From assembly GCA_025963485.1 (NCBI GenBank), contig JAOQAO010000194.1:27890-91889 (forward strand): a stretch of DNA of 64,000 bases, written 5' to 3'. Under the pieces are notes generated by a model that saw nothing but the letters and a program-made list of their open reading frames with translations, was not told where the DNA came from and made no database searches. This document shows positions 12,462 to 47,360 of the stretch, one piece after another. The DNA is from Bacteroidota bacterium (lineage in GTDB: Bacteria; Bacteroidota; Bacteroidia; Chitinophagales; LD1). The translations under genes and the position numbers were made by a program. The stretch's first letter is position 1, and each line of letters begins with the position of its first letter.

Positions 12462-12788
12462 ATGAGAACTCTGCTACTTACACTTTTTCTTTCTGGTTAT
12501 TTTATGAGTGCATTCCCTACCGGCCTCTATAGTGCAGCGGCTGCAGGAGCATATATGCAGGAGTCACGTGTGACCATCTATCCCAATCCTGCCCAAGACA
12601 TTATATATATCAAAGGCGGAGGAGCCTTTCGCATCGAGCTGATGAATATGATAGGAGAGGTCGTATTGAGCGAACAGATCACTGCGGGGACAGTTTCTAT
12701 ATCGGATGTGCGACCCGGTGTTTATATCGTGCGCATCTACGATACCGATGGTACGCTTATCTCTTCTTCCAAACTTACCAGGCAATAG
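12462..12788 (+). CDS. Small protein made of a signal peptide plus a T9SS type-A C-terminal sorting domain
   Basis: 108 aa. The sequence VTIYPNPAQDIIYIK...GVYIVRIYDTDG is a canonical T9SS CTD pattern with almost no cargo in front of it. Confidence 0.6.
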   Translation: MRTLLLTLFLSGYFMSAFPTGLYSAAAAGAYMQESRVTIYPNPAQDIIYIKGGGAFRIELMNMIGEVVLSEQITAGTVSISDVRPGVYIVRIYDTDGTLISSSKLTRQ

Positions 12789-12858
12789 TTTTTGTCTCAT
12801 CGTTTTGGCACGAATTTTTTACTGTACCCATATTATTTCACCATATAAATTCCAGGCT

Positions 12859-13029
12859 ATGTTAAAATGGTCATTCATATTCCTTATAGTTGCTATTGTG
12901 GCGGGCATATTTGGATTCACTGGTATAGAGGCCGGAGCTGCTTCTATAGCCAAGATATTATTCTTCATTTTTATTGCAGTATGGGTAGTTATGCTTGTTT
13001 TGGGCATCACTATCTTCAAGAAGGCCTGA
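12859..13029 (+). CDS. DUF1328-family small membrane protein
   Basis: 56 aa counted from the ATG at 12859. MLKWSFIFLIVAIVAGIFGFTGIEAGAASIAKILFFIFI matches the DUF1328 (YtjA-like) pattern. The upstream part of ORF 12706.. looks non-coding. Confidence 0.7.
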   Translation: MLKWSFIFLIVAIVAGIFGFTGIEAGAASIAKILFFIFIAVWVVMLVLGITIFKKA

Positions 13030-15787: not shown

Positions 15788-18700
15788 TTACCTCACCATA
15801 GTGAACCTCACCTGCCGTGAACTTTGCATTCCTTTCACCGTCAGTGTATAAACTCCGGCAGCTGCATCACGCATATCTATAGCCTGGGTATCGGATGTGA
15901 TAGCTTTCTCTTCGATCACTTCGCCCAGCATGTCGGTGATGATGTAGTTACTGTTGTGACTGTTTGATGTTTGCAGGGTGAATGAGCCGGTGTTGGGATT
16001 TGGATAGAGGTGAATGTCGCTGATTCCGGTGATGTCATGTACTCCGTCGACTCCGAACGAGAGATGTAGCGTGATAGTACTATCACAGCCATTGACCGAC
16101 GGGAGTGTATCATAATAAGTACCTGCGTTCCTAAGCGTATCTCCGCCAAAAATATAGAAGGCTGCATTGAATGCCGTAACATTGATCGTTTGGGAGGCAG
16201 ATGGCTTCACCGTCAGCGTCAGATTGATGATACTATCACATCCGCCCACCACCTGAAACGTATCCGCATAGATCCCTGAAGCAGTCAGATGTTGTATATA
16301 GAATGTGAACGTATCTCCCGCGCACATCGCATGACTGATCGGTGTGGTTGTATTTACACATGCAGCTACTGTAGTAGTCACGGTGTTTGTCACCACCGCC
16401 GGATTATTATCAAAGTAGATATACGCCGTATTATTGATCGCAGTGCCATTCGTCAGGTTGGCATTTGCCTTTACACGATACTGTATCCACCCCTCACTCA
16501 GCGGCGGATTAGTGGCACTATCCACCAGATTGATATGTGGGAATGTAAACGTCATCGCATTATGGTCCAGCTGTATCACAGCATGATGACTCGACGCGAG
16601 GTATTGGAATGATGCTGCATCTATATACTGGCTGAGAGTGTCTTTGAGCACTACGAGATAGGCAGTATCGCTTCCTGTATTCTGGAAGTGGATGGTGTAC
16701 GTGAGCCAGTCGGTAGCGCCGGGCTGTATGTTTTCAGGATACACATCCTTTAGATTTGGATCATATGAATTACGTATTTGGAAACATTGTGTTAGAGTAT
16801 TATTGGCAGGTATAAGGTCGGGTATCGTAGGTGTGATTGTAATGGTAAGACAGGCTGTAGTACCCAATATAGCAGATGGATCTGTAAGTAAAATAATGTC
16901 AAGGTCACCTTCCTCCAGAATATTGAGATCAGCCAGATTATATGTCACTATATTGCCAGAAACAGAAGATGGAGTCAATGCCCCTGACGCAGGACCTATA
17001 TAATGCAAAGCATTAGTCCACGTGGTTGTGACGGTGCCTGCAGTTCCTGCGCCGCAGTCTATATTATATCTCAAGCGTGCTACATTGCCAGCACTGATAT
17101 GGACTCCGGTTTGAAAGCCAGGGCGAAAGCGTGGTGCCGGTAAATTATAAACTCCAAAATCAATCCCTGAGCATTGAGCACCAAAACTTTCATATTTTTT
17201 GACAGAGTCAGCGGCAGATATCACTACACTGCGCATCATAGATGACGGGCACACTATTGATAGCGGTAGGGCGGTTGTATCTATATCTACTGTATAGCTG
17301 CCGTATCCTGGTGTCTTAAATGAATAACCACCTGAATTGAAAGTATAAAACTGTTGTATTACGCTACCGGCTTGCTTTAGCTGCACTTTCATATTAGTGA
17401 TCGATGCACCTGGGTGAATGCTATCAGATGTGCATGTAGCCGAGGTGTCAGAATGCACTGTGCCTGCTACATTGTAATAAAAGTCACAGCCTGAAGCGGC
17501 ATCGCACAGTGGCATGGTAGCCGGATTTATATCATACTGGATTGCTGTCAGTAGGTTGGGGAGACAATGGATATTTGTCCCGGCTATGAAAAAGGAATAT
17601 AACGGAGGACTATAAATTCGTGGCAGACATGTCAGGGATGGATTGGAATCGCAAGCAAACTCATTGAGTCGGATAGGGAGATCTGGCAAGGTAGTCAAAC
17701 GATTGGATCCGCAGCCAAGAAGGGTAAGGCTGGCAGGTAATGATGGCAGGGCAGATAAATTATTTTTGCTGCATGTCAACAGGTGAAGGTGGGGAGGCAA
17801 GGCTGGCAGCGATGCTATTGAGTTATAGTCGCATTCCAGCTCTGTGAGTGGATCTGGCAGTGCTGGCAGTGCGGATAGTAAATTCTTTTGGCACCAAAAT
17901 GTCTGAAGGGAATCGGATAATGCTGGCAGGACAGTGATATGATTGGAATGACAATACAGCGTTTGTAAAGGGACTGGCAATGCAGGTATGGTGCTGAGTG
18001 TATTGTAACTGCAATCGAGCCTATTTAAATAAGGTGGAAGAGCTGGTAATACGGAGATCGAATTAAAACTACAATCGAAGGTTCTCAGGGAATCTGGCAG
18101 TGCGGGTAAAACAGTCACATGATTGGAGGTTATACTCAAAAACGTCAATGCTGTAGGTAAAGAAGGTGTCGTAGTTAAGCTGGCATCCATGCAACTTAAG
18201 GATGTAAGGGATGCCGGGAGGGAAGGCAATGCAGTAACGGGATTGAAGCCACAGGCCAGCGTCTGCAAATGTGTCGGTAATGCCGGCAAACTAGTTAATT
18301 GATTAAACGTGCAATCCAACTCAAGCAATGAAGTACTAAGCTGTGATAAGTTGTTTAGGGAATCATGATTGCATGTAAGATATTTCAACGAGGACGGGAA
18401 AGAGGAAAGCGTGTGAAGGGGATTGTAACTGCAATCTAAAGTGATGAGTCCGGAAGACAAGGCTGGCAATGTTGTGAAATAATTGTGGCTTAGGATCAGG
18501 TATTTTACTGTAGATGATAATGTAGGAAGACCTGCGAGATGATTATTGGAGCAGTTGAGTGTTTGCAGGTGGGTGAAGTATTGTATCCCATCCAGATTTG
18601 AGATGCTATAAGACTCGCAATCTATACTCGATGCATTAATGACCAGAGGATCGGAAGCATTTAAAAAATATCCGCTCGTAGAGTTGCCGCTGATTGGGAA

Positions 18701-18826
18701 GCTGTGCCCATCCAACCAACTCGCAAAATTCTGATCTGGGATAGATACTACTTGCCCCCGCGCAGTCCCCATAGCGACACACAAACAAAGCACCAGCCAT
18801 AAGCGGTAAAGTAAAGTAGTTTTCAT
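15788..18826 (-). CDS. Secreted leucine-rich-repeat protein with a T9SS C-terminal sorting domain (paralog 1 of 3)
   Basis: 1012 aa with a signal peptide. About fifteen 20-21-aa LxxLxCxxNxLxxLPxLPxx repeats. A conserved DPN..YTIHFQNTG..IYFDNNP beta-domain, two Cys-repeat modules and the CTD IHLYPNPNTGSFTLQ...GVYTLTVKG. Confidence 0.85.
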   Translation of the reverse strand: MKTTLLYRLWLVLCLCVAMGTARGQVVSIPDQNFASWLDGHSFPISGNSTSGYFLNASDPLVINASSIDCESYSISNLDGIQYFTHLQTLNCSNNHLAGLPTLSSTVKYLILSHNYFTTLPALSSGLITLDCSYNPLHTLSSFPSSLKYLTCNHDSLNNLSQLSTSLLELDCTFNQLTSLPALPTHLQTLACGFNPVTALPSLPASLTSLSCMDASLTTTPSLPTALTFLSITSNHVTVLPALPDSLRTFDCSFNSISVLPALPPYLNRLDCSYNTLSTIPALPVPLQTLYCHSNHITVLPALSDSLQTFWCQKNLLSALPALPDPLTELECDYNSIASLPALPPHLHLLTCSKNNLSALPSLPASLTLLGCGSNRLTTLPDLPIRLNEFACDSNPSLTCLPRIYSPPLYSFFIAGTNIHCLPNLLTAIQYDINPATMPLCDAASGCDFYYNVAGTVHSDTSATCTSDSIHPGASITNMKVQLKQAGSVIQQFYTFNSGGYSFKTPGYGSYTVDIDTTALPLSIVCPSSMMRSVVISAADSVKKYESFGAQCSGIDFGVYNLPAPRFRPGFQTGVHISAGNVARLRYNIDCGAGTAGTVTTTWTNALHYIGPASGALTPSSVSGNIVTYNLADLNILEEGDLDIILLTDPSAILGTTACLTITITPTIPDLIPANNTLTQCFQIRNSYDPNLKDVYPENIQPGATDWLTYTIHFQNTGSDTAYLVVLKDTLSQYIDAASFQYLASSHHAVIQLDHNAMTFTFPHINLVDSATNPPLSEGWIQYRVKANANLTNGTAINNTAYIYFDNNPAVVTNTVTTTVAACVNTTTPISHAMCAGDTFTFYIQHLTASGIYADTFQVVGGCDSIINLTLTVKPSASQTINVTAFNAAFYIFGGDTLRNAGTYYDTLPSVNGCDSTITLHLSFGVDGVHDITGISDIHLYPNPNTGSFTLQTSNSHNSNYIITDMLGEVIEEKAITSDTQAIDMRDAAAGVYTLTVKGMQSSRQVRFTMVR

Positions 18827-18861
18827 AGCGGTAGATTATGCTCTAAATCTATCACTTTAAA

Positions 18862-18886
18862 AGCGGAACAGAAAAACTGTTTCGCT
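18862..18886 (-). terminator. Terminator-like hairpin downstream of LRR paralog 2
   Basis: AGCGGAACAG-AAAAA-CTGTTTCGCT (one G-U/mismatch position), flanked by T/A runs on both strands. Confidence 0.45.
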
Positions 18887-18925
18887 TTTTATATTAACCA
18901 GTATCAAGTATCTCGCATCCAGTAT

Positions 18926-21900
18926 CTATCTCACCACCACAAACCTCACCTGATGCGAGCTTTGTATGCCTTTAACCGTCAGTGTATAGACTCCTGCAGC
19001 TGCCTCGCTCATATCTATCGCTTGTGAGTCTGAGGTGATGGCTTTATCCTCTATCATATTGCCCAGCATATCAGTGATGATGTATTCACTATTCCTGTTG
19101 TCTGATGTTTGCAAAGTAAATACACCGCTGTTTGGATTTGGATAGAGATGGATATATTTATCCATAGGACTCTCTATGACACCAGGGCACACGGTAAATA
19201 GAAATGTTTTGTTGATCGAAGCGGTACATCCATGCCTATCAGTATAGCTATAGCTGATTACGTATATTGTATCCCTGTATGGCGATATGTCCAATGAATC
19301 CTGTGATATAGGTCCACCGGCGAATATGCCCCCAGCAGGGGCAGCATTTGTCAAAAGCCAAAATGAAGGAGGGCCAACATCGCTGACGCAATAGAATGTG
19401 TCGGATTGTGTCCAGCTAACTACCGGTGCGGGCCGTACCGCCAGCGCCAATACGATCAGGCTATCGCAGCCGTGGACATTGAGCAGCGTATCCGTATAGG
19501 TGCCTGCTGCTGTGAGCGACCTTCCATAAAATAAGTAAGATGTTCCGCTGCATATCGTATCAGCGAGTCTCGTCGTATCAGATGCGCGTACCTCCAGCAT
19601 CAGCATGATCACACTATCGCAGCCATGCATGTTTTGCAGTGTATCCATATACATACCCGACGCCGTCAGTGATTGCCCGTAGAAAGCATAGGATGCGCCG
19701 CTGCATATCGTATCCTCCAGCATCGTCATATCAGATGGCCGTACCGCGAGTATGATGCTGACGATGCTATCGCATCCATATACGCTCTGAAGTGTCGCGC
19801 TATACGGACCTGCCACCATCAGCGACTGTCCGTGGAATGCATACACATCACCATCGCAGATCGTATCATGCGTAGAAGGTGCTATATACTTCGGATGTAC
19901 GGCAAGCGTGAGGCTGATGATACTGTCACAGCCACCGGCGCGTGGCATGGTATCATTGTAGATACCCTGTGCTGTGAGCTGCTGCCCGTAGAATGTAAAG
20001 GTATCTCCGGCACAGATAGATTGACTGAGTGAAATCGTCGTGTCGCTACATGTGACGAGAGTTACATTAGTCGTAGCCGTATTGGTCACTACCGCAGGGT
20101 TATTGTCAAAGTAGATAAAGGCGGTGTTATTGATCAGAGTGCCATCGGTGAGATTTGGATTTGCCTTCACCCTGTACTGTATCCATCCTTCACTGAGGGC
20201 GGGATTAGTCGCACTGTCTACGAGGTTGATATGCGGGAAGGTAAACGTCATTACATTATGGTCGAGTTGCACCACCGCATGATGGCTCGATGCGAGGTAC
20301 TGGAAGGACGCTGCATCGACATACTGGCTGAGTGTGTCTTTCAGTACCACGAGATAGGCGGTGTCGCTGCCCGTATTCTGGAAGTGGATGGTGTAGGTGA
20401 GCCAGTCGGCGTTTGCAGGTAGAAGCCTCGATGGGTATACTTCTTTATAGTTAGGGTCCCATGAGTGTACTATAGTATAGCACTCCGTACGCGAGTCATT
20501 GGCAGGCTGTGCGTCAGCAGGAGCTACTGCGACAGTAGTAGTGATGCACAGTTGCGATCCTACTACCGCACCGGTATCTACTGTAAATATGAAGTCCAGG
20601 CTGCCCTCGTGTATAGAGTCGAGGTCGGTGACAATATAGGTCAGTGTGTGCCCGGATACAGACGTGGGAGTGAGTGCACCGGCGGCGGGCCCGCTGTACT
20701 GACCGGCATTGGTCCAGGTGGTCGTGATGATGCCTGATGTACCTGCGCCGCAGTCGGTACTGTATTGCAACAGGGAGATATTTCCCGCATTGATATGTAC
20801 GTATGAGGAGAAGGTGGGACGGAGATGCGCGGATGCTATATCTATCACGCCAAAGTCTACCGATGAGCAGCGCATACCAAAGTTCTCATACATATGGACA
20901 GAGTCAATAGCGGTGAGCGATACCGTGCGTGCACCTGATCCGGGGCATATCACAGACAACGGAAGCGAGGTAGTATCTATACTGACAGTATATGTGCTCA
21001 GCGATGGTGTTTTGAATGAATAGCCACCCGAAGTAAATGTATAGAACTGCTGTACTACTGACCCGCCTTGTTTGAGCTGTACTTTCATCCCTGTGACGGG
21101 TACACCAGGATTGAGGCTATCATTAAGGCAGTTGGGAGAGTTGTCGTAGTGGATATTACCCGAAATATTATAGTAAAACTCGCAGCCACTCGTAGCATCG
21201 CAGAGAGGATAGTTGGCCAGTATAGTGTCGCACACATGGCTGCTGAAGCGATTGGGCAGGCAGGAGATATTTGTGCCTTTGATATTAAGAAGATTGAGCT
21301 GATTTCGCGTGATACGTGGCAGGCAGGACAGGGAGGGATTATTGCTACAGGTGAGCGATATGATAGACGCAGGCAGTGAGGGCAATACGCTTATCTGATT
21401 GTCATTGCAATACAGTTCCCTCAGGAATGGGTTCGCCGACGACAGTGTAGTGATCATGTTGTGGCTGCAGTCTAGTATGTAGGCATAGGGCGTTGTCAAT
21501 GTGGTGAGGCGGTTATAGCTGCAGTTGAGGCTCGTGGCAGAGACGCCGGCCAGTGAGGTGATCATATTGTGGCTGCAGTCCAGCTGTTGCAGTGTGCCGG
21601 GCAGAGATGGCAGTGACGTGAGCTGGGCATTATTGCATATGAGATATATGAGGTTATATAGCCCGACGAGCGCAGGCAGGCTAGTGATAGGATTATGATC
21701 GCAGGACAGGTATTGCATGCCGGGGGGGACCGTAGGCAGTGTTGTGAGGTTGTTATAGCCGCATGAGAGGGAATAGAGGGGATCTGGCAGTGCCGAAAGC
21801 GTGCTGAGCCCGTTGTATCCGCACTCCAGGACTTGCAGCGAGTCAGGCAGTGTGCCGGGGAGTGAGCCCAGTGGGTTAAAGCTGCAGTAAAGCTCTGCTA

Positions 21901-22534
21901 GCTCATTGGGCATGGCGGGCAGGCTGGTGAGCTGGTTGCTGTTGCAGTTTAGTACCCGGATACTGGCCGGTAGTACTGGCACAGCAGTGAGAGAGTCATA
22001 AGAGCAGTTGAGTATGGTCAGTGTGGAGGGTAGGGACGGCAGGCTGTGAAGCGCTGGATTGTCCTGGCAGTATAGCTCTCTGAGGTCTGTCGGGAATGGT
22101 AGCATGCTGTGCAGGTTATTAAGGTTACAGCGAATGACCTGCAGGTATACGGGCCAAAATGAGGTATTGAAGGAGCTGATCTGATTAAATTCACAATTGA
22201 AAGAATCAAGGTAGTAGGGTAGATAAGGTATTGTGGTCAGGTAATTTTGGGAACAGTTGACATATTTCACATTGATAAAAGCCCCTATACCCTCCAGGTC
22301 ATGTATATTGGAATAATGGCAGTCGATCATGGTTGCATTCCGTACAGAAGGGTCCGAACCGTTCAGTTGCCAGCCACTGACGCTGTTGCCCGTGAGGGCT
22401 GGGGCATAGCCATTATTGTATAGCCAGTTGCCAAAGTTGGTATCGGGTATCGCTACATATTGCGCCCGCGCAGTACTCATAGCGATACACAAAGTACAGA
22501 TGAGCAGAATCCTGAATAGAGTGTAGTTTTTCAT
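18926..22534 (-). CDS. Secreted leucine-rich-repeat protein with a T9SS C-terminal sorting domain (paralog 2 of 3)
   Basis: 1202 aa with the same architecture as 15788..18826, but with four Cys-repeat modules and an extra segment before the CTD. Confidence 0.85.
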   Translation of the reverse strand: MKNYTLFRILLICTLCIAMSTARAQYVAIPDTNFGNWLYNNGYAPALTGNSVSGWQLNGSDPSVRNATMIDCHYSNIHDLEGIGAFINVKYVNCSQNYLTTIPYLPYYLDSFNCEFNQISSFNTSFWPVYLQVIRCNLNNLHSMLPFPTDLRELYCQDNPALHSLPSLPSTLTILNCSYDSLTAVPVLPASIRVLNCNSNQLTSLPAMPNELAELYCSFNPLGSLPGTLPDSLQVLECGYNGLSTLSALPDPLYSLSCGYNNLTTLPTVPPGMQYLSCDHNPITSLPALVGLYNLIYLICNNAQLTSLPSLPGTLQQLDCSHNMITSLAGVSATSLNCSYNRLTTLTTPYAYILDCSHNMITTLSSANPFLRELYCNDNQISVLPSLPASIISLTCSNNPSLSCLPRITRNQLNLLNIKGTNISCLPNRFSSHVCDTILANYPLCDATSGCEFYYNISGNIHYDNSPNCLNDSLNPGVPVTGMKVQLKQGGSVVQQFYTFTSGGYSFKTPSLSTYTVSIDTTSLPLSVICPGSGARTVSLTAIDSVHMYENFGMRCSSVDFGVIDIASAHLRPTFSSYVHINAGNISLLQYSTDCGAGTSGIITTTWTNAGQYSGPAAGALTPTSVSGHTLTYIVTDLDSIHEGSLDFIFTVDTGAVVGSQLCITTTVAVAPADAQPANDSRTECYTIVHSWDPNYKEVYPSRLLPANADWLTYTIHFQNTGSDTAYLVVLKDTLSQYVDAASFQYLASSHHAVVQLDHNVMTFTFPHINLVDSATNPALSEGWIQYRVKANPNLTDGTLINNTAFIYFDNNPAVVTNTATTNVTLVTCSDTTISLSQSICAGDTFTFYGQQLTAQGIYNDTMPRAGGCDSIISLTLAVHPKYIAPSTHDTICDGDVYAFHGQSLMVAGPYSATLQSVYGCDSIVSIILAVRPSDMTMLEDTICSGASYAFYGQSLTASGMYMDTLQNMHGCDSVIMLMLEVRASDTTRLADTICSGTSYLFYGRSLTAAGTYTDTLLNVHGCDSLIVLALAVRPAPVVSWTQSDTFYCVSDVGPPSFWLLTNAAPAGGIFAGGPISQDSLDISPYRDTIYVISYSYTDRHGCTASINKTFLFTVCPGVIESPMDKYIHLYPNPNSGVFTLQTSDNRNSEYIITDMLGNMIEDKAITSDSQAIDMSEAAAGVYTLTVKGIQSSHQVRFVVVR

Positions 22535-22785
22535 AATAACATATTTGTGTTTGAGTTCAAGTTGATATGTAAATGTCTTTTATAATATCGTAACAAGAAA
22601 ATATTTATTTAGTCAAAAATATGAAAGCTGACGTTCAAGCAGAATCACTTCGTCGTTGAACTCCACATTAGTATGCATTCATCTGTTACCATCATGCCGA
22701 CCCTTAGATACTTCATCGTGACACCAGGTTGAGTATCTTAAAAGGATTAAAAGGCCTTTCCGGTACTTTGAAAATCAGCGGATCA

Positions 22786-22818
22786 GGGATACAGGATCCG
22801 TGGATCTCCTGTATTCCC
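22786..22818 (-). terminator. Hairpin downstream of LRR paralog 3 (weak terminator candidate)
   Basis: GGGATACAGGA ... TCCTGTATTCCC is an imperfect inverted repeat about 26 bp beyond the stop codon. There is no strong T tract. Confidence 0.3.
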
Positions 22819-22843
22819 GACCGACCGACCGTTTTCAGTTTTT

Positions 22844-25800
22844 TTATCGCACTACTACAAACTTCACCTGCCGCGAACTTTGTGTTCCTTTCACTGTCAG
22901 TGTATAAACGCCAGCCGCTGCTTCATGCATGTCGATAGCTTGTGTATCCGATGTGATAGCTTTCTCCTCGATCATATTTCCGAGCATATCAGTGATGATG
23001 TAGCTACTGTTGTGGCTATTTGATATTTGCAGCGCGAAGGTGCCTGTGTTCGGATTTGGATACAGGTGGATGTCGTTCAGGTTGGCCACATCATTGATAC
23101 CTTCGCAGACTGTTACAACCAAAATGGCACTCGTTACATTACTGCATCCATGCACATCCGTATATGTATAGTAGATCGTATCAAGGGCGGGAAATCCTGA
23201 CAAATGTTGCATAGCGAAGTGGCCATTTAAAGTATCATTCTGAACACCCAGCCCTGAGAAAGTCCCACCAGATGGCGATCCCCCGGTCAGCGGTATCATA
23301 TAGCGGGGGAAAGCTAATTCGCACCAGATAGCATTGCTATCAACGAAAGAACGATAATCCAGATAGTGAGTTGCTACCAGCGAATCCCATGAGAAGTTCA
23401 CCACCGGCAAAGACCTCACTTGGAGATCTAGTACGATCAAACTATCGCAGCCATGCACATTGTGCATTGTATCCACATAGGTACCCGCGGCAGTGAGCGA
23501 TCGTCCGTAGAAGGTGTATGATGCACCACTACAGATCGTATCTGCCATCCTCGTAGTATCTGATGCCCTGACCTCCAGCATTAGCATGATCACACTATCG
23601 CAGCCGTGGACATTGCTCAGCGTATCCAGATACATGCCTGTTGCAGTCAACGACTGACCGTAGAATGCATAAGACGATCCACTGCATATAGTGTCTTCTA
23701 TCATCGTCATGTCCGATGGCCTTACGGCCAGCACTATACTGACCATACTGTCGCATCCATGTATGGTTTGCAGCGTAGCGTTATAAGTACCCGCAGATGT
23801 CAACGACTGACCGTGATAGGAGAGTGTGCCTCCATCACAGATCGTGTCGTACGTGGCCGGAGCTATATATTTGGGGTGTACCACGAGTGTCAGGCTGATG
23901 ATGCTATCGCATCCACCCGCACGAGGAAAGGTATCATTGTAGGTACCCTGTGCAGTCAGCGCCTGCCCGTAGAACATGAATGTATCTCCTGAGCAGATGG
24001 ACTGGCTGAGCGTACTAGTGGTGTCGCTGCAGGTGAGCAGAGTTACATTGGTCGTAGCGGTATTGGTCACGACGGCAGGGTTATTATCAAAATATATGTA
24101 CGCAGTATTATTTATCGCAGTGCCATCAGTGAGGTTGCCATTTGCCTTTACACGATATTGTATCCATCCTTCACTGAGTGGTGGGTTCGTGGCACTATCC
24201 ACGAGATTGATATGCGGGAATGTAAAAGTCATCGCATTATGGTCCAGCTGTATCACCGCATGATGGCTTGATGCCAGATATTGGAAAGAAGATGCATCAA
24301 GGTTTGAGCTAAGCGTATCACGCAGTATGACGAGATAAGCAGTGTCGTTTCCTGTATTCTGGAAATGAATGGTATAGGTCAGCCAGTCCGCAGCGCCCGG
24401 CTGTATGCGTTCCGGATACGCTTCTTTGTAGTTAGGATCCAGTGAGTTCGTGATCGTGAAACATTGTGTCAGCGTATTATTGCCCGGCACCGGATCTGAT
24501 CCCGATGATGTGACCGTGGTGGTGATGCAAGTCGTAGATCCCAGCACTGCCGATGCGTCCACGGAGAACAAAATGTCCAGGCTGTGGCTCCCGAGTGTAT
24601 TGAGGTCGGCAATATTATATGTCAGTGTATTGCCTGATACAGATGTAGGTGTGAGTGAACCCGGTGCAGGTCCGGTGTAGTGCACGCCGGAGTTGGTGTA
24701 GGTAGTGGTCACAGTGCCCGAGCTGCCGCTGCCGCAGGTGGCATGGTAGTTGAGCAGTGCGACATTGCCGGCCTCTATATGAGCAGTGAGCTGCTGTAGC
24801 GAAGCCCTGAAGGTCGGCGCTTCGATGTGCGCTACCGCAAAATCCGTCACCGAGCACTGCATCCCAAAGCTTTCATTTCTTTTGATCGAGTCGATAGCAG
24901 AAATGGTCACCGTACGCAGGTCAGACTGAGGGCAGGCCACCGTGATGGGCAAAGAAGTAGTATCGATATTCACTGTATAGGTGCCATAGGCTGGGGTCTT
25001 AAATGAATAACCACCGGAGCTAAATGTATAGAACTGCTGTATCACGCTACCGCCTTGTTTGAGCTGCACCTTTACATTGGTGATAGGCGCTCCGGGGTTG
25101 ATGCTGTCAGATGTACAGTTGGCAGATACGTCATTGTGGATGCCGCCTGCTATATTGTAGTAGAAATCACAGCCCGATGCCGGTGTACACAGCGGCATCG
25201 TACCCGGATTGAGATCGAATGTCGTCGCGGAGAAACGGCTTGGCAAACAAGTAAGGGCGGTTGACCCGAATTTGAACTCAGTGAATTGCGTCTGTGTGAT
25301 ACGCGGCAGGCAGCTGAGGTGACGGTTCAGGTATAGTGTGAAAGTGGTCAGGTAAGAAGGGATATTGACAAAAGACCTGATATCATTGTCATCACACTTC
25401 AGTAAGTACATAGTGTTTGGCAATAGCGGCATGGAGGTTATTAGATTTCCGCTGCAGATCAGACTACCCATCGCACGCGGCATCGCCGGCAGAGAGGTCA
25501 GTTGATTATAACTGCAGTTGATTGAGCTTATTGTATCGGGCAATGCCGGCAGTGTCGATAGAAGATTGGAGTGGCAGTCAAGGCGGTACATAGTGCGTGG
25601 CAGTGCAGGCATGACCGTTATTGAGTTTTGATTGCAGTCCAGGTCTTGCAGCGTAGCTGGCAGGGCCGGCAGGCTTGTCAGCTGGTTTTGGTTGCATCCC
25701 AATGTGCTCAGGTTGGGGGGTAGTGTAGGGAGTACAGTCAGAAGATTCAAATTGACTTCCATGTTTGTGATAGATGACGGGAGCGCAGGGAGGCTGGTCA

Positions 25801-26464
25801 GGCCGCAAGCCTGCATCCAGAAATCGGTGAGCCCTGCCGGCAGCACGGGTAATGTTGTGATCGGGTTGTAGTCACAATAGAGCCTGCGCAGGCTCGCCGG
25901 CAATGTGGTCAATTGGCTTATCTGGTTACCGCTGCAGGTCAGGATCTGTAGTGTACTGGGCAGTCCCGGCAGGTACGTTGTGTGATTATTACTACAGGTG
26001 TAGTCTACCAGACTGGTTGGCAGGTTTATTATATTATCATACAGGTCATTGTCATTTACATACAGGTACATTAGGTTATTGGGTAGTGAGAAGGGCAGTG
26101 ACTGCACATGTGAGTTGCTGCAGTCCAGGGTCAGCAGGTACATCGGCAGGTCATTTATATAGGGTATGTTATTGTACCGGCAGCTGATATGAGCTGTGTT
26201 GGTCAGGTACTCTATCCCTGTCAGGTCAGTGATGCCCAGATTGTCCATATTGAGGTCAGGTACATATTGCTGGCCGGCGCAGGTGGGATCTATTTGCCAT
26301 CCGCTGCCGCTGCTGCCGGTCATGCAGCTGGCATAGCCGTTATTATAGAGATAGGTGCCGAAGTTCGCATCGGGTATCGGCATATACTGCGCACGGGCTA
26401 CAGAGAGCGTACAGCAGAAACAACAAAAAAGAAGAATGCGACGAAGGGTAAGTAGTGTTTTCAT
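22844..26464 (-). CDS. Secreted leucine-rich-repeat protein with a T9SS C-terminal sorting domain (paralog 3 of 3)
   Basis: The ORF is open to 26662, but Met67 (ATG at 26464) begins a signal peptide, MKTLLTLRRILLFCCFCCTLSVARAQ, that aligns with the two paralogs. That gives 1206 aa from this start. Confidence 0.85.
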   Translation of the reverse strand: MKTLLTLRRILLFCCFCCTLSVARAQYMPIPDANFGTYLYNNGYASCMTGSSGSGWQIDPTCAGQQYVPDLNMDNLGITDLTGIEYLTNTAHISCRYNNIPYINDLPMYLLTLDCSNSHVQSLPFSLPNNLMYLYVNDNDLYDNIINLPTSLVDYTCSNNHTTYLPGLPSTLQILTCSGNQISQLTTLPASLRRLYCDYNPITTLPVLPAGLTDFWMQACGLTSLPALPSSITNMEVNLNLLTVLPTLPPNLSTLGCNQNQLTSLPALPATLQDLDCNQNSITVMPALPRTMYRLDCHSNLLSTLPALPDTISSINCSYNQLTSLPAMPRAMGSLICSGNLITSMPLLPNTMYLLKCDDNDIRSFVNIPSYLTTFTLYLNRHLSCLPRITQTQFTEFKFGSTALTCLPSRFSATTFDLNPGTMPLCTPASGCDFYYNIAGGIHNDVSANCTSDSINPGAPITNVKVQLKQGGSVIQQFYTFSSGGYSFKTPAYGTYTVNIDTTSLPITVACPQSDLRTVTISAIDSIKRNESFGMQCSVTDFAVAHIEAPTFRASLQQLTAHIEAGNVALLNYHATCGSGSSGTVTTTYTNSGVHYTGPAPGSLTPTSVSGNTLTYNIADLNTLGSHSLDILFSVDASAVLGSTTCITTTVTSSGSDPVPGNNTLTQCFTITNSLDPNYKEAYPERIQPGAADWLTYTIHFQNTGNDTAYLVILRDTLSSNLDASSFQYLASSHHAVIQLDHNAMTFTFPHINLVDSATNPPLSEGWIQYRVKANGNLTDGTAINNTAYIYFDNNPAVVTNTATTNVTLLTCSDTTSTLSQSICSGDTFMFYGQALTAQGTYNDTFPRAGGCDSIISLTLVVHPKYIAPATYDTICDGGTLSYHGQSLTSAGTYNATLQTIHGCDSMVSIVLAVRPSDMTMIEDTICSGSSYAFYGQSLTATGMYLDTLSNVHGCDSVIMLMLEVRASDTTRMADTICSGASYTFYGRSLTAAGTYVDTMHNVHGCDSLIVLDLQVRSLPVVNFSWDSLVATHYLDYRSFVDSNAIWCELAFPRYMIPLTGGSPSGGTFSGLGVQNDTLNGHFAMQHLSGFPALDTIYYTYTDVHGCSNVTSAILVVTVCEGINDVANLNDIHLYPNPNTGTFALQISNSHNSSYIITDMLGNMIEEKAITSDTQAIDMHEAAAGVYTLTVKGTQSSRQVKFVVVR

Positions 26465-26855
26465 ATTTCGTGGGGTTATTGTCTTAAATGTATAAATAAT
26501 TTTTAACAAAAAATATGTGATCCGGCTGTAAGCTATGTACAAACTCATCAAATGGCAATACAAAACGAATAAGTGATAGGGAATAGGCAATAAGTGATGG
26601 CTCGTGAGGAATAACTGCACAAATGGCCCTGATTTTTGCCCGATTCGTATCACAGAGGGCAAAAATCAAGGTGCTTTTTTGTAGCCCCGACTATGCAATA
26701 TGCTGAGTTGACGTCATCTATCAAACATCGGGCCCTTTTTTCAGCTTTAGCCTGTGAGCTACCCTGCCGGATCTTATACGAAGCTGCACTCCGGCGGAGA
26801 TAAGGCCGTCAGCAGGAGCAAAAAGTACTCTCTGGGTACGAGCCGTTTCCGGTTT

Positions 26856-32541: not shown

Positions 32542-32839
32542 GAGCGTATTTATGTAAGGATCAAATATAACAAAATGCCTGCGGAAGCCCGGCCCTGCAA
32601 TGGCTATCGCGGTCTTATCCAGGTATATCTATTGGGCGATTCGATATCGCGGGGTCATCAGTGATAAAAGTGATGAAGGAATAGGCTTTCATCATCACTG
32701 TTCTTGTACAACATTGCTAGTGTTATTGTCCCTCCAAATACGTGAATGATGTAACTATTAGGTGTAATAGTGTAACACTTTGGATTTTAATAGATTGTAC
32801 CTTTCCATCGGGAAAATTATTTCCTGTTTAAACTATACC

Positions 32840-35011
32840 ATGTTTCATATAAATAGACTTATTACTTTTCTTTTTGCCTTTTTAGCTTTCATCATTTCCG
32901 GGTTCTCGCAGGCACCTTCATTAGGCACTGCCGCTTCATTTGTATTATTTTCTACCAATGGAGCAGTGTCCAATGTCGGCATCACGCATCTCACCGGCAA
33001 TGTAGGCACCAATAATGGATCCAACACAGGTTTTGGTAATGTGAATGGTGTCATGCACAGTGCTGACGGTGCCACGGCTCAGTGCGCAGCAGACCTGCTC
33101 ACTGCCTATCATCAGCTGAATACAGCCACTGCCACGCACTTTCCCGCTCCGCTGCTGGGCAATGGGCAGACCCTGCCCGCGGGTGTGTACTCTATAGGCA
33201 GTGCTGCGACGCTGAATGGCAACCTGCTGCTGGATGCACAGAATAATGCCAGTGCAGTTTTTATCATCAAGATACAAGGTTCCTTCTCTACAGGCGCCGG
33301 GGCTAAAGTGAAACTCGTCAATGGTGCTCGCGCCTGCAATGTATACTGGAAGGTAGAAGGCCTCGTGGATATGGCCACGGGCACAAACATGAAAGGCACC
33401 CTCATCGTAAACAATGCCGCGATCAGTATGCATACCGGTGATACGCTGGAAGGCAGGGCGCTCACTACGACAGGTGCTGTGACTGTCGACGGCATTCTCG
33501 GATATACACCGATAGGCTGCGGTAGCCCTATACTGACCGGGCCATCCGCACCGGCACTCGCCTCATCAGAATGCTACGCTATATTTTCTGCCAATGGTGC
33601 TGTGACCAACTCCGGCATCACTCATGTCACCGGCGATGTAGGTACCAATGTCGGCCTGACCACAGGCTATGATACACTACTCGTCAATGGCAAGGTGCAT
33701 CCGATACCTGATGCATCTACCGCACAGTGCGCAGCAGACCTGCATACGGTCTATACCTATCTCAATACTATGCCCTACGATATCCAGCTACTATATCCTG
33801 CGCAGTTTGGCGGTGAGCTGGTACTGACACCACATACTTACCTGCTCAATGCTGCCACCGTGCTGACCGGCACGGTGTACCTCGATGCTCAGGGCAATGC
33901 CGGTGCAGTATTTGTGATCAAGATCAATGGTGCAATGTCTACGGGTACATATGCGCATGTGGTACTGATGAATAGTGCACAAGCGAAGAATGTTTTCTGG
34001 AAGATAGAAGGCGCTGTAAGCATAAACAACTATTCTACTTTCTGCGGCACGATCGTCTGCAACAATGGCGCCCTGAATGCACTTAATACAGGTGTGTCTA
34101 TAGATGGGAGGGCATTTACTACCGGTGGCCAGGTGACGACCAGTGCCATCACGGATATCATGCCTCCCGGCTGCACGTCCGGTGCGCCGAGTATCGGTAC
34201 GCAACCTAATAGCCAGTCGGCCTGCCTGGGCAGCGCGGCGAGTTTCTCCGCTGTGGCGCATGGCTCCGGCCTCACCTATCAGTGGAGGCGGGGAAATGTA
34301 AATATCACCAATGGCTCACATATCTCAGGAGCCACTGCCGCGATACTGACCATCGATCCTGTGGCGGCATCTGATGCAGCTTCCGATTATAATGTGATCG
34401 TAAGCGGTTCTTCCGGTCCCAAAGATACCTCCGCATACGTTTCTCTGATAGTACGAACTGCACCCGCTATCACCACTCCTCCTGCGAGCCAGATGGTATG
34501 TACAGGCGGTGCAGCGACTTTCTCAGTGAGCGCATCAGGCACGCAGCCTACCTATCAGTGGAGAAAAGGAAATGTAAACCTCGTCAATGCAGTAAATGTA
34601 TCCGGGGCTAATACACCTACACTGATCATAGACCCGGCGACAGCGCTGGATGCAGCGACTGACTATAATGTGGTAGTCACAGGCACATGTGCACCCGCCG
34701 CCACATCGGGCAATGCGGCACTCACTATATGTCCTACAGGTATCGCCACGATGGCCGGGAACGATCAAGCGGTGACCATATACCCAAATCCTTTTGGCGC
34801 GGTATTCACGATCAGTCTCAATGATGTATCTGCCATAGGTAAATATGAGATGAAGCTATACAATATACTCGGCGCAGAAGTGATGACCATCAGCATCACA
34901 AAGCAGCTGACCACAGTGGATGCTACTGACCTCGCAGCAGGGATCTATATATACAAGGTCAGCAGTAACAAAAAGGATATTCAGACGGGCAGGCTGGTGA
35001 CGCAGAAATAA
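32840..35011 (+). CDS. T9SS-secreted protein with two tandem ice-binding-like (DUF3494) domains and Ig-like repeats
   Basis: The signal peptide starts at the ATG at 32840. The DUF3494 pattern occurs twice (LGTAASFVLFSTNGAVSNVGITHLTGNVGTN...AVFIIKIQG...NVYWKVEG...GRALTTTGAVTVDG, and again from 33545). Two YQWR(R/K)GNVN repeats follow, then the CTD VTIYPNPFGAVFTISL...GIYIYKV. Confidence 0.85.
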   Translation: MFHINRLITFLFAFLAFIISGFSQAPSLGTAASFVLFSTNGAVSNVGITHLTGNVGTNNGSNTGFGNVNGVMHSADGATAQCAADLLTAYHQLNTATATHFPAPLLGNGQTLPAGVYSIGSAATLNGNLLLDAQNNASAVFIIKIQGSFSTGAGAKVKLVNGARACNVYWKVEGLVDMATGTNMKGTLIVNNAAISMHTGDTLEGRALTTTGAVTVDGILGYTPIGCGSPILTGPSAPALASSECYAIFSANGAVTNSGITHVTGDVGTNVGLTTGYDTLLVNGKVHPIPDASTAQCAADLHTVYTYLNTMPYDIQLLYPAQFGGELVLTPHTYLLNAATVLTGTVYLDAQGNAGAVFVIKINGAMSTGTYAHVVLMNSAQAKNVFWKIEGAVSINNYSTFCGTIVCNNGALNALNTGVSIDGRAFTTGGQVTTSAITDIMPPGCTSGAPSIGTQPNSQSACLGSAASFSAVAHGSGLTYQWRRGNVNITNGSHISGATAAILTIDPVAASDAASDYNVIVSGSSGPKDTSAYVSLIVRTAPAITTPPASQMVCTGGAATFSVSASGTQPTYQWRKGNVNLVNAVNVSGANTPTLIIDPATALDAATDYNVVVTGTCAPAATSGNAALTICPTGIATMAGNDQAVTIYPNPFGAVFTISLNDVSAIGKYEMKLYNILGAEVMTISITKQLTTVDATDLAAGIYIYKVSSNKKDIQTGRLVTQK

Positions 35012-43950: not shown

Positions 43951-43975
43951 TTCCAATATCAGTTTATCAATTGTA

Positions 43976-47324: not shown

Positions 47325-47360
47325 TTTAATTCGTTCGTGAAGTATGTATTTAGCCGCGTA

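What the first reader, a model, noticed from the sequence alone, without database searches (positions are those of the whole stretch)
15788..26464. Three tandem paralogs that combine YopM/IpaH-style LRRs with T9SS export
Each protein carries about fifteen 20-21-residue repeats of the form LxxLxCxxNxLxxLPxLPxx. This short LPX-type LRR is best known from type III effectors (YopM, IpaH/SspH, SlrP). Here the repeats sit behind a Sec signal peptide and in front of a T9SS C-terminal sorting domain. No NEL ligase domain is visible. The LRR arrays (roughly 17600-18620, 21300-22330 and 25280-26240) are the most divergent parts of the paralogs. That fits a family of surface-exposed binding modules with diversified specificity.
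Basis: partly seen in the sequence, partly recalled or inferred. Interest (0 to 1): 0.6.

Follow-up and report, generated by a model that had tools for sequence, protein, structure and literature searches.

The report
Tandem T9SS surface proteins with YopM-type LRRs
Three neighbouring genes of an uncultured Bacteroidota bacterium encode large exported proteins with a YopM/IpaH-type leucine-rich-repeat binding domain on a rigid stalk and a type IX secretion tag; the reading is correct, but the design is common in this phylum and so fairly ordinary.

Summary
Three minus-strand genes encode paralogs of 1012, 1202 and 1206 aa: A 15788-18826, B 18926-22534, C 22844-26464. Each has a Sec-type signal peptide and 15-16 units of about 20 residues, LxxLxCxxNxLxxLPxLPxx. 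A three-domain beta-sandwich stalk follows, including DUF7619, a predicted isopeptide domain. Then come 2-4 uncatalogued 51-aa two-Cys modules and a type A T9SS sorting domain.

Sequence and fold searches both place the repeats in the "bacterial"/LPX class. YopM, SspH2 and IpaH are the best solved matches, and no NEL domain is present. The LRR arrays are the most divergent parts (34-40% identity, against 85-88% in DUF7619).

The combination is not rare. All 45 family members tested hit the SspH2/SlrP models, and 38 carry a T9SS tail. The stalk core has about 990 representatives at 50% clustering. LRR proteins exported by T9SS are already known experimentally (BspA, InlJ, AdpC/F).

The most likely function is a T9SS-displayed adhesin with the LRR solenoid as its distal binding tip. 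Diversifying selection could not be tested, because synonymous sites are saturated. Verdict: a new member of a known kind, of modest interest.

The parts
15788..18826 (-). Gene A, 1012 aa (NCBI MCW3127265.1, named 'Adhesin AidA-related protein'). Order of parts: signal peptide, N-cap, 16 LRR units, C-cap, three beta-sandwich domains, 2 two-Cys modules, T9SS sorting domain.
   Evidence: ORF; domains; exact database match.
18755..18826 (-). Signal peptide of A (residues 1-24, MKTTLLYRLWLVLCLCVAMGTARG|Q). B has ...STARA|Q and C has ...SVARA|Q. The Gln after the cleavage motif is at least 90% conserved in the family.
   Evidence: Read from the sequence. Q25 is nearly invariant in 45 sequences. The model shows a helix over residues 2-20 with lower pLDDT. 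No signal-peptide predictor was run.
18569..18754 (-). N-terminal cap of A (residues 25-86), with the motif IPDxNFxxWL and a small alpha/beta fold. It is unlike the helical cap of YopM. Residues 30-259 match the internalin J model.
   Evidence: Secondary structure; family consensus; NF033187 internalin_J at E 2.7e-18.
17609..18568 (-). LRR array of A: 16 units of exactly 20 residues, LxxLxCxxNxLxxLPxLPxx (LPX / bacterial class, N-subtype, with Cys at position 6).
   Evidence: model; YopM/SspH2 matches.
17474..17608 (-). C-terminal cap of A (residues 407-451), with family-conserved Cys and Pro (P402, C421, P423, C441, C447). These are probably disulfide-stabilised.
   Evidence: Nearly invariant columns; strands 409-413 and 428-431. 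The disulfides are inferred.
17192..17473 (-). Stalk domain 1 of A (residues 452-545), an SdrD_B / CarboxypepD_reg-like beta-sandwich.
   Evidence: Weak Pfam hits below cut-off; all-beta model with pLDDT about 90.
16763..17191 (-). Stalk domain 2 of A (residues 546-688), a beta-sandwich with no Pfam family.
   Evidence: No Pfam hit at E <= 5; model pLDDT 89-98.
16370..16762 (-). Stalk domain 3 of A: DUF7619 (residues 689-819). It is a predicted intramolecular-isopeptide domain. The candidate triad is K693, D729, N799.
   Evidence: PF24595 at E 1.7e-39. The K, D and N columns are invariant in 51 sequences (residues read). The Lys-Asp-Asn triad of DUF7619 is described in PMC12617251. The bond itself is not shown.
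16058..16348 (-). Two two-Cys modules of A of about 51 aa (C.GD.F.FYGQ.LT..G.Y.DT....GCDS.I.L.L.V). The second has lost its first Cys.
   Evidence: model pLDDT 43-85; no Pfam family.
15791..16009 (-). Type A T9SS C-terminal sorting domain of A (residues 940-1012).
   Evidence: PF18962 at E 8e-11 and TIGR04183 at E 1.4e-9, both above cut-off.
18926..22534 (-). Gene B, 1202 aa (MCW3127266.1, hypothetical). It has the same plan as A, but with 4 two-Cys modules and an extra segment of about 90 aa before the sorting domain.
21299..22270 (-). LRR array of B: 16 units of 18-22 residues (residues 89-412).
20069..20458 (-). DUF7619 of B (residues 693-822).
   Evidence: PF24595 at E 6e-39.
19436..20014 (-). 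Four two-Cys modules of B (residues 841-1033, period 51-52 aa, 153 nt at the DNA level).
   Evidence: direct-repeat family D1 with 153-nt spacing.
18929..19147 (-). Type A T9SS sorting domain of B (residues 1130-1202).
22844..26464 (-). Gene C, 1206 aa (MCW3127267.1, hypothetical). It has the same plan as B.
25286..26197 (-). LRR array of C: 15 units of 20-21 residues (residues 90-393).
24050..24439 (-). DUF7619 of C (residues 676-805).
   Evidence: PF24595 at E 8e-40.
23417..23995 (-). Four two-Cys modules of C (residues 824-1016).
22847..23065 (-). Type A T9SS sorting domain of C (residues 1134-1206).

Best explanation
The three genes are old tandem duplicates. They belong to a large, uncharacterised Bacteroidota family of T9SS-exported, adhesin-like surface proteins.

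Proposed mechanism:
1. The Sec system exports the precursor, and signal peptidase I cleaves after ARG/ARA, leaving an N-terminal Gln.
2. The protein folds in the periplasm. It forms a 16-turn, helix-free LRR solenoid of the YopM type with an internal column of Cys residues and capped ends. Behind it lie three beta-sandwich domains, one of them (DUF7619) probably locked by a Lys-Asn isopeptide bond, and then 2-4 small two-Cys modules.
3. The type A C-terminal domain directs the protein through the T9SS translocon. A PorU-type sortase removes that domain and probably links the new C-terminus to a surface glycolipid.
4. The stalk then holds the N-terminal LRR solenoid away from the cell. Its concave face, which differs completely among the three paralogs, binds a ligand. 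Each paralog probably binds a different one.

Shown here: the gene structures, the domain order, the LRR class, the sorting domain, the absence of NEL, the pattern of divergence and the family distribution.
Inferred: actual secretion, anchoring, the isopeptide and disulfide bonds, binding, and different specificities.
For: LRR class.
- The SspH2 and SlrP models are the best NCBIfam hits, and they cover only the LRR part of those models.
- YopM at E 8e-57, SspH2 at 3e-35 and IpaH/SspH1 at 1e-23 to 1e-17 lead the PDB sequence search.
- Foldseek on a pLDDT-96.6 model gives YopM 4ow2 (E 3e-18, TM 0.68), then SspH2, then YopM 1g9u.
- The repeat fits the published definition of the bacterial N-subtype: 20 residues, variable segment xxLPxLPxx (PMC5976695).

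Export.
- The type A sorting domain scores above the curated cut-offs in all three proteins.
- Other proteins with sorting domains lie in the same window.
- The T9SS mechanism is taken from PMC5445135.

Stalk.
- DUF7619 hits at E 1e-39.
- The Lys/Asp/Asn columns are invariant. They match the isopeptide triad predicted for DUF7619, a domain found in elongated surface proteins of Gram-negative bacteria (PMC12617251).
- The stalk model is all-beta. Multi-Ig adhesins (Bap, PrgB, Cna, Sgo0707, AspA) are among its fold matches.

Family.
- LRR_4 + DUF7619 + Por_Secre_tail is the majority architecture among 894 hits.
- The stalk core has 991 representatives at E <= 1e-30.
- Of the 148 best representatives, 110 have at least 4 strict LPX units.
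- A syntenic metagenome locus also holds tandem copies.

Precedents.
- T9SS-exported LRR adhesins are known: P. gingivalis InlJ binds Candida Als3 (PMC5915736), and P. intermedia has LRR cargo (PMC11969387).
- InlJ-type LRRs count as the adhesive domain of fibrillar adhesins (PMC9210967).

Divergence.
- dN is 0.64-0.75 in the LRR arrays and 0.08-0.10 in DUF7619.
Against: - There is no experimental evidence for secretion, anchoring or binding, and the organism is known only as a MAG.
- T9SS machinery genes were not seen in the 64-kb window, so their presence in the genome is assumed from the many sorting-domain proteins.
- Type A cargo is released rather than anchored in some Bacteroidota.
- The divergence of the LRRs fits relaxed constraint as well as selection for new specificities. 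The variable positions are at the random floor on both the concave and the convex side.
- The stalk fold matches are generic, with TM 0.1-0.3.
Confidence: 0.7

Rival explanations
1. The proteins are secreted by the T9SS but released into the medium. They act as soluble LRR binding proteins, for example to coat, agglutinate or capture prey, algal or host surfaces or polymers, and are not cell-anchored adhesins.
For: The type A sorting domain itself does not decide between anchoring and release; anchoring depends on A-LPS (PMC5445135). Many short family relatives are only LRR plus sorting domain, with no stalk (400-480 aa).
Against: A stalk of more than 500 residues, with a predicted isopeptide-locked domain and a variable number of spacer modules, is typical of anchored proteins that bear mechanical load. 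It has no obvious use in a soluble protein.
Confidence: 0.18
2. The proteins work like YopM, IpaH or SspH: their LRR domains reach the cytosol of a eukaryotic cell and scaffold or redirect host proteins there.
For: The LRR arrays resemble YopM and the NEL effectors most closely. One Salmonella NEL subfamily even shares the Cys at position 6.
Against: - No NEL domain is present.
- The proteins have a cleavable Sec signal and a T9SS tail, not a T3SS signal.
- The T9SS is not known to inject proteins.
- Cys-rich caps and Ig-like stalk domains are extracellular features.
- The similarity to the Salmonella array comes entirely from the repeat consensus; no unit register stands out.
Confidence: 0.02
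3. Two of the three copies are redundant duplicates drifting under relaxed constraint. On this view the divergence of the LRR arrays carries no functional meaning.
For: The variable repeat positions are as different between corresponding units as between unrelated units. dN/dS cannot be estimated.
Against: - All three ORFs are intact over 1000-1200 codons, although synonymous sites are saturated.
- The scaffold positions of the repeats are kept (52-61% identity at consensus positions).
- The number of units is kept at 15-16.
- DUF7619 and the sorting domain are under strong purifying selection in every pair (dN/dS 0.03-0.11 where it can be estimated).
Confidence: 0.05
4. The LRR tips bind each other or other surface proteins of the same species. 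They would then serve cell-cell cohesion, biofilm building or gliding-related surface functions, and would not recognise foreign ligands.
For: The same two-Cys modules occur in proteins with type B (CHU_C, 'gliding motility-associated') sorting domains. T9SS LRR proteins of oral Bacteroidota contribute to biofilm and coaggregation (PMC5915736).
Against: Nothing specific points this way. The type A tail differs from that of SprB-type motility adhesins, and no gliding genes flank the locus.
Confidence: 0.05

Closest known systems
YopM (Yersinia) and the LRR domains of the NEL effectors SspH1/2, SlrP and IpaH ('bacterial'/LPX class LRR)
   Same: The repeats are 20 residues long with the variable segment xxLPxLPxx. 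The convex side has no helices. These are the best sequence and fold matches.
   Different: - The window proteins use Sec plus T9SS export, not T3SS.
- They have no NEL domain.
- Position 6 is Cys, where YopM has V or A.
- The N-cap is a small alpha/beta fold, not a helical hairpin.
- The C-cap is rich in Cys.
- The solenoid is fused to a long beta-sandwich stalk.
Listeria monocytogenes InlJ (PDB 3bz5), the internalin with a cysteine ladder
   Same: It is an extracellular LRR adhesin tip on a stalk with a C-terminal anchor. A conserved Cys replaces a core hydrophobic residue. The internalin_J model matches residues 30-259 of A at E 2.7e-18 and matches 19 of 45 family members. The fold match has TM 0.64 and rmsd 3.4.
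   Different: InlJ has 21-residue repeats without the LPxLP segment and is anchored by LPXTG in a Gram-positive wall. Whether the Cys sits at the same repeat position was not checked here.
T9SS-exported LRR proteins of oral Bacteroidota: T. forsythia BspA, P. gingivalis InlJ (PG0350), P. intermedia AdpC/AdpF
   Same: They share the logic of Sec signal, LRR domain and C-terminal T9SS sorting domain, and have shown adhesin and coaggregation roles (PMC5915736, PMC11969387, PMC5445135).
   Different: From my own knowledge, not tested here, they use other LRR classes (BspA is TpLRR-like). They lack the SdrD_B-like / DUF7619 stalk and come from host-associated species.
Unnamed Bacteroidota family with the architecture LRR_4 + DUF7619 + Por_Secre_tail (e.g. 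P0130, P0133, P0146; NCBI 'T9SS type A sorting domain-containing protein')
   Same: Homology runs over the full length, with 47-63% identity in the stalk. The caps, the Cys-6 LPX units and the sorting domain are the same.
   Different: The window copies are longer (1012-1206 aa, against mostly 750-1000). The extra length comes from the two-Cys modules and, in B and C, one more segment. The number of LRR units varies widely across the family: the stalk starts at residues 267-543.
Fibrillar adhesins (adhesive tip + stalk + anchor), including isopeptide-stabilised stalks
   Same: The window proteins have an N-terminal binding domain, beta-sandwich stalk domains including a predicted isopeptide domain, and a C-terminal anchoring signal (PMC9210967, PMC12617251).
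   Different: The stalk is three different domains plus a few small modules, not a long tandem array of one domain. Anchoring would be through the T9SS.

Membership tests
Bacterial (LPX) class LRR, N-subtype | Repeat length of 20 residues (conserved segment of 11 plus variable segment of 9) | tested here: met
   A has 16 consecutive units of exactly 20 residues. B and C have mostly 20, with a range of 18-22. The model has a strand every 20 residues. The definition is from PMC5976695.
Bacterial (LPX) class LRR, N-subtype | Variable segment xxLPxLPxx with two Leu-Pro pairs | tested here: met
   In A: L14 13/16, P15 13/16, L17 14/16, P18 11/16. The family consensus is the same.
Bacterial (LPX) class LRR, N-subtype | Closest solved relatives are YopM, SspH, SlrP and IpaH, not other LRR classes | tested here: met
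   YopM E 8e-57, SspH2 3e-35 and IpaH 1e-23, against Leptospira LIC 8e-11 and internalin B 6e-4. The Foldseek top three are YopM, SspH2, YopM.
Bacterial (LPX) class LRR, N-subtype | Convex side without alpha-helices (extended / polyproline II conformation) | tested here: met
   DSSP on the pLDDT-96.6 model shows no helix between residues 87 and 409. Polyproline II itself was not assigned.
NEL E3-ligase T3SS effectors (IpaH/SspH/SlrP) | C-terminal NEL domain (PF14496) with a catalytic Cys | tested here: not met
   PF14496 is not hit at E <= 0.01. The SspH2 and SlrP models match only at their positions of about 200-440.
NEL E3-ligase T3SS effectors (IpaH/SspH/SlrP) | Uncleaved N-terminal T3SS signal and a T3SS in the genome | tested here: not met
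   The N-terminus is a classical Sec signal: K/R, then a hydrophobic core, then AR[GA]|Q. Whether the genome has a T3SS cannot be tested from the window.
T9SS type A cargo | C-terminal type A sorting domain above the curated threshold | tested here: met
   PF18962 scores 42.0-42.6 bits (cut-off 27) and TIGR04183 37.8-39.3 bits (cut-off 23), at the extreme C-terminus of all three proteins.
T9SS type A cargo | N-terminal Sec signal peptide | tested here: met
   Shown by sequence inspection and family conservation of AxA|Q. No dedicated predictor was available.
T9SS type A cargo | T9SS machinery in the genome, and T9SS-dependent export with removal of the sorting domain | not testable with these tools
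   Only 64 kb of a MAG is available. Indirect support comes from other sorting-domain ORFs in the window (32780-35011, 63137-63994, 12706-13029).
LRR_4 + DUF7619 + Por_Secre_tail family of Bacteroidota | Full-length collinear homology: cap, LPX LRRs, C-cap, three-domain stalk, sorting domain | tested here: met
   Hits of 750-1000 aa have this Pfam combination and 47-63% identity over the stalk. Consensus motifs are shared along the whole alignment. The three paralogs sit inside the family tree.
DUF7619 intramolecular-isopeptide domain | Conserved Lys-Asp-Asn triad | tested here: met
   K693, D729 and N799 of A lie in columns invariant in 51 sequences. Their spacing matches Lys657/Asp695/Asn764 of the reference protein to within 1-2 residues (PMC12617251).
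DUF7619 intramolecular-isopeptide domain | The covalent Lys-Asn bond is actually formed | not testable with these tools
   This needs mass spectrometry or a crystal structure.
InlJ-type cysteine-ladder LRR | 21-residue repeat in which a conserved Cys replaces a core hydrophobic residue | tested here: inconclusive
   A Cys column is present (14/16 units in A; 86% of 927 units in the family), and the internalin_J model matches. However, the repeat is 20 residues, not 21, and carries LPxLP. The equivalence of the Cys position was not checked.
Fibrillar adhesins | Adhesive domain plus a stalk of repeated domains plus a surface anchor | tested here: inconclusive
   The tip and the anchoring signal are present. 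The stalk consists of three unlike beta-sandwiches plus 2-4 small modules, not a long tandem array. Adhesion is untested.

The most novel reading that the evidence does not exclude
The Cys-6 LPX solenoid may be primarily an extracellular module. About a thousand diverse Bacteroidota T9SS surface proteins use it as their binding tip, and the intracellular T3SS effectors would then be a side branch of that pool. One Salmonella NEL subfamily carries exactly this Cys-6 variant (P0006 and relatives, 758 aa). In addition, the tandem paralogs here could be a receptor-like set whose concave faces were diversified by selection.
Probability: 0.25. Interest if true: 0.45.

Novelty: new member of a known kind. 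Interest (0 to 1): 0.3.

Why it matters
The finding corrects the common view that LPX-type LRRs are a hallmark of type III effectors. In public data, most close relatives of these arrays are Sec/T9SS-exported surface proteins of environmental Bacteroidota.

The family is large: about 990 clusters at 50% identity for the stalk core. It is entirely uncharacterised. It combines three features useful for protein engineering and for understanding adhesion in non-pathogenic Bacteroidota:
- a very regular 20-residue solenoid with an internal Cys column;
- a predicted isopeptide-locked stalk domain;
- an uncatalogued spacer module next to T9SS sorting signals.

None of this would surprise a T9SS or LRR specialist, and no open question turns on it.

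Tried and rejected
Nei-Gojobori pS is 0.54-0.94 in every segment, which is saturation, so the ratios are meaningless for the LRRs.
- Position-specific test for concave-face hypervariability. Identity at the concave x positions is 5-17% and at the convex x positions 14-24%. Both equal the values for non-corresponding units (10-13% and 18-19%), so no signal is left.
- Recent unit amplification or gene conversion. There is no 60-nt DNA periodicity. The highest DNA identity between copies is 80-82%, in DUF7619 and the sorting domain, where pS is still 0.54-0.74. Conversion is therefore rejected as the cause of the conserved C-terminal half.
- Transfer between Salmonella NEL effectors and this family. 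The 758-aa Salmonella proteins share Cys-6 and score higher against A (268 bits) than against YopM (220) or SspH2 (134). No unit register shows above-background identity at variable positions, so the similarity is consensus-driven and direction cannot be inferred.
- Search for the source species among genome representatives. The best hit was 35% identical (uncultured Chitinophaga), so no close genome is available.
- Look-up of the fourth paralog of the same MAG (P0137): not on record.
- Pfam on the two-Cys modules, on the extra segment of B and on stalk domain 2: nothing at E <= 5.
- Foldseek on the whole stalk: only generic multi-Ig matches, TM 0.1-0.3.
- Sigma-70 promoter and terminator scan: 21 promoter-like sites against 21.0 expected, so uninformative. 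Bacteroidota-type promoters are not covered by the tool.
- Literature search for LPX-class LRRs combined with T9SS: no paper addressing the combination was found.

Full report
**What is there.** The interval holds three intact ORFs on the minus strand: A 15788-18826 (1012 aa), B 18926-22534 (1202 aa) and C 22844-26464 (1206 aa). The gaps between them are 99 and 309 nt. The ORF of C continues upstream to a TTG at 26662. The ATG at 26464 gives an N-terminus that matches A and B, and its product is exactly the NCBI protein MCW3127267.1. All three proteins are on record from one MAG ('Bacteroidetes bacterium', locus tags JWO03_29xx, contig 108 kb). A is named 'Adhesin AidA-related protein' there, and B and C are hypothetical. 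Each is the only member of its 90% cluster. A and B also sit on a Logan contig from SRR13312974. No close genome exists among 185,579 species representatives; the best match is 35% identical, from an uncultured Chitinophaga.

**Checking the observation.** Pfam finds LRR_4, DUF7619 (E about 1e-39) and the T9SS sorting domain Por_Secre_tail (42-43 bits, cut-off 27) in all three. It also finds a weak SdrD_B-like match. No NEL domain is hit. NCBIfam gives SspH2 (E 6e-48 to 6e-39) and SlrP as the best models. Both matches are restricted to the LRR part of those models. TIGR04183, the type A sorting domain, scores above its cut-off.

A repeat HMM and a tiling procedure give these arrays:
- A: 16 consecutive units of exactly 20 residues (residues 87-406).
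- B: 16 units of 18-22 residues.
- C: 15 units of 20-21 residues.

Each array has one capping unit before it and two after it. In A the consensus is L1 15/16, L4 13/16, C6 14/16, N9 14/16, L14 13/16, P15 13/16, L17 14/16 and P18 11/16.

**LRR class.** The published definition of the 'bacterial' class is a 20- or 21-residue repeat with two Leu-Pro pairs in the variable segment. The N-subtype has xxLPxLPxx (PMC5976695), and the units here fit it. Against PDB sequences, the LRR domain of A matches as follows:
- YopM at E 8e-57 and 8e-48
- SspH2 at 3e-35
- IpaH and SspH1 at 1e-23 to 1e-17
- Leptospira LIC proteins at 1e-10 or weaker
- internalin B at 6e-4

An AlphaFold2 model built on 45 sequences has pLDDT 96.6. 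It shows a three-residue strand every 20 residues from 89 to 409 and no helix on the convex side. Foldseek against the PDB ranks YopM 4ow2 first (E 3e-18, TM 0.68), then SspH2 and YopM 1g9u.

**Differences from the T3SS proteins.** There are four.
- Position 6 of the repeat, a core position, is Cys. In the aligned YopM units it is V or A. This is a family trait: 86% of 927 strict LPX units in 148 relatives have Cys there.
- The N-terminal cap (IPDxNFxxWL, a small alpha/beta fold) is not the helical cap of YopM. Residues 30-259 of A match the NCBIfam model of Listeria InlJ at E 2.7e-18, as do 19 of 45 relatives. InlJ is the internalin known for a cysteine ladder. Its structure 3bz5 is fold match number 21, with TM 0.64.
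- The C-terminal cap carries nearly invariant cysteines (C421, C441, C447). This suits an extracellular protein.
- The N-terminus is a Sec-type signal peptide that ends in AR[GA] followed by Gln. This Gln is at least 90% conserved in the family.

**The rest of the protein.** This part is missing from the finding. A model of residues 441-1012 of A (pLDDT 85.6) is all-beta. In order it contains:
- an SdrD_B-like sandwich;
- a second sandwich with no Pfam family;
- DUF7619;
- two small five-strand modules;
- the sorting domain.

DUF7619 was recently predicted to be an intramolecular-isopeptide domain with a Lys-Asp-Asn triad, typical of elongated surface proteins of Gram-negative bacteria (PMC12617251). 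The corresponding K693, D729 and N799 of A lie in columns invariant across 51 sequences.

The small modules have the pattern C.GD.F.FYGQ.LT..G.Y.DT....GCDS.I.L.L.V and a period of 51 aa (153 nt). There are two in A and four each in B and C. They match nothing in Pfam. They do occur in at least 179 database proteins, nearly always next to a type A (PF18962) or type B (PF13585) T9SS sorting domain. B and C have about 90 further residues before the sorting domain. Foldseek on the whole stalk returns only generic multi-Ig proteins. Several Gram-positive adhesins are among them, at low TM.

**How the paralogs differ.** The table gives amino-acid identity between the paralogs by segment.

| Segment | aa identity |
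|---|---|
| LRR arrays | 34-40% |
| N-cap | 33-51% |
| C-cap | 42-50% |
| Stalk domains 1 and 2 | 50-71% |
| Sorting domain | 77-83% |
| DUF7619 | 85-88% |

Synonymous differences are saturated everywhere (pS 0.54-0.94), including in DUF7619. So the duplicates are old. The conserved half reflects purifying selection (dN/dS 0.03-0.11 where it can be estimated), not recent gene conversion. For the same reason, dN/dS cannot be obtained for the LRRs.

I also compared the arrays unit by unit. Identity at the five concave-face variable positions is 5-17%, and at the six convex positions 14-24%. Non-corresponding units give the same values (10-13% and 18-19%). Scaffold positions keep 52-61% identity. 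The binding surfaces of A, B and C are thus completely different. The data cannot say whether selection or drift made them so. There is no 60-nt DNA periodicity, so the arrays did not grow recently.

**Distribution.** With the LRR domain of A as query, 660 proteins pass E 1e-5. Apart from a block of Salmonella NEL proteins, most listed hits carry LRR_4 plus Por_Secre_tail. Many are only 400-480 aa long, and their sources name them 'T9SS type A sorting domain-containing protein [Bacteroidetes bacterium]'. With the stalk as query, 894 proteins pass. The usual architecture is LRR_4 + DUF7619 + Por_Secre_tail at 750-1000 aa, and a fourth paralog of the same MAG (JWO03_2260) is among them.

Further counts:
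- All 45 sequences of the LRR alignment hit the SspH2 and SlrP models, and 38 hit TIGR04183.
- In a library of 1.84 billion 50%-identity representatives, the 369-residue stalk core finds 991 proteins at E <= 1e-30.
- Of the 148 best representatives, 110 have at least four strict LPX units.
- The stalk starts anywhere from residue 267 to 543, so the number of LRR units varies widely in the family.

A metagenome contig of 1.29 Mb (L038) is syntenic with the window. It shares the M42 peptidase, a 347-aa ORF, a 107-aa sorting-domain ORF and a 131-aa ORF. It holds two tandem family members and a third 5 kb away. In a neighbour-joining tree of the stalk core, A, B and C form their own clade, sister to the second L038 gene. 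The other L038 gene and the fourth MAG paralog branch elsewhere. The triplication is therefore lineage-specific, within a family that already had several paralog lines.

**Mechanism.** Established knowledge of the T9SS comes from PMC5445135: Sec export, folding in the periplasm, recognition of the C-terminal domain, its removal by the PorU sortase, and attachment to anionic LPS. Combined with the anatomy above, this gives the most likely reading. The proteins are surface-displayed and adhesin-like. The N-terminal solenoid is the distal binding tip, and the stalk plus a variable number of spacer modules sets its distance from the cell.

Precedents exist. P. gingivalis InlJ is a T9SS cargo that binds Candida Als3 (PMC5915736). 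P. intermedia exports LRR proteins through its T9SS (PMC11969387). InlJ-type LRRs are a recognised adhesive domain of fibrillar adhesins (PMC9210967).

Four things are not shown here: secretion, anchoring as opposed to release, the covalent bonds, and any ligand. I give 0.7 to the anchored-adhesin reading, 0.18 to a released binding protein, and very little to a YopM-like intracellular role.

**Side observation on the T3SS link.** The Salmonella proteins that top the LRR search (758 aa, with a NEL domain, for example P0006) themselves have Cys at position 6 in 13 of 15 strict units. Their array scores 268 bits against A, 220 against YopM and 134 against SspH2. No unit register gives above-background identity at variable positions. 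So the resemblance lies in the scaffold, not in unit-by-unit ancestry, and no transfer event can be claimed.

**Novelty and score.** Its kind, T9SS-exported LRR surface proteins, is known from experiments. I found no paper that discusses LPX-class repeats in T9SS cargo. The point that this repeat class is mainly extracellular in Bacteroidota is therefore modestly new. I rate the finding a new member of a known kind, with interest 0.3.

Noticed in passing
window 40710-56391 (-): Five tandem large ORFs (983, 1047, 1007, 840 and 1012 aa) have no Pfam hit at E < 1e-4. They are mosaic paralogs. All share an N-terminus MKKLITL..FSFS.LQAQ NVGIGTNSPGTKLDVSGAI (signal peptide, Gln, then a VGIGT..P..KL.V.G motif). 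Blocks of 51-81% identity are shared between different pairs at different positions. A PPIase-like ORF follows at 39125-40705.
   Followed up: partly
window 19436-20014, 23417-23995, 16058-16348 (-): A two-Cys module of about 51 aa (C.GD.F.FYGQ.LT..G.Y.DT....GCDS.I.L.L.V) has no Pfam family. It occurs in at least 179 database proteins, nearly always directly before a type A or type B T9SS sorting domain. Its GCDS[IVL] matches the Bacteroidota O-glycosylation sequon D(S/T)(A/I/L/V/M/T). A, B and C have 13, 24 and 21 such sequons in all.
   Followed up: partly
P0006, P0029, P0043, P0048 (Salmonella enterica, 758 aa, NEL domain): A subfamily of Salmonella NEL-type E3 ligases has 18 strict 20-residue LPX units, with Cys at position 6 in 13 of the 15-16 strict-pattern units. 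This matches the Bacteroidota family and differs from YopM and SspH2. The array scores higher against window protein A than against any solved T3SS LRR, but no unit register stands out.
   Followed up: yes
L038 10001-22391 (JGI 3300056798, contig of 1.29 Mb): This locus is syntenic with the window. It has two tandem LRR-DUF7619-sorting-domain genes, the same 131-aa and 107-aa (sorting-domain) ORFs, an M42 peptidase, a 347-aa ORF, and a third family member. Copy number at this locus therefore differs between related genomes.
   Followed up: partly
window 32780-35011 (+): A 743-aa protein has two ice-binding-like domain matches (PF11999, E 1.5e-70), an Ig domain and a T9SS sorting domain.
   Followed up: no
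window 60042-63065 (+): A 1007-aa protein with a signal peptide and collagen triple-helix repeats (PF01391, E 9e-17). A PhoD-like phosphatase with a T9SS sorting domain lies next to it at 63137-63994.
   Followed up: no
window 3962-8365 (+): A 1467-aa histidine kinase with an unusually long run of PAS domains (PAS_3 matched six times).
   Followed up: no
window 18863-18885 (-) and about 22790-22825 (-): Inverted repeats lie shortly after the stop codons of B (GCGAAACAG-ttttt-CTGTTCCGC, then TTTT) and of C. A TATTTTTG (TAnnTTTG) motif lies about 75 nt upstream of B. Together these suggest three separate transcription units. All were seen by eye, and the consensus scan was not enriched.
   Followed up: no
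window 26465-26662 (-): The ORF of gene C extends 66 codons upstream to a TTG. That stretch has no counterpart in A or B and precedes the signal peptide, so it is very likely not translated.
   Followed up: yes
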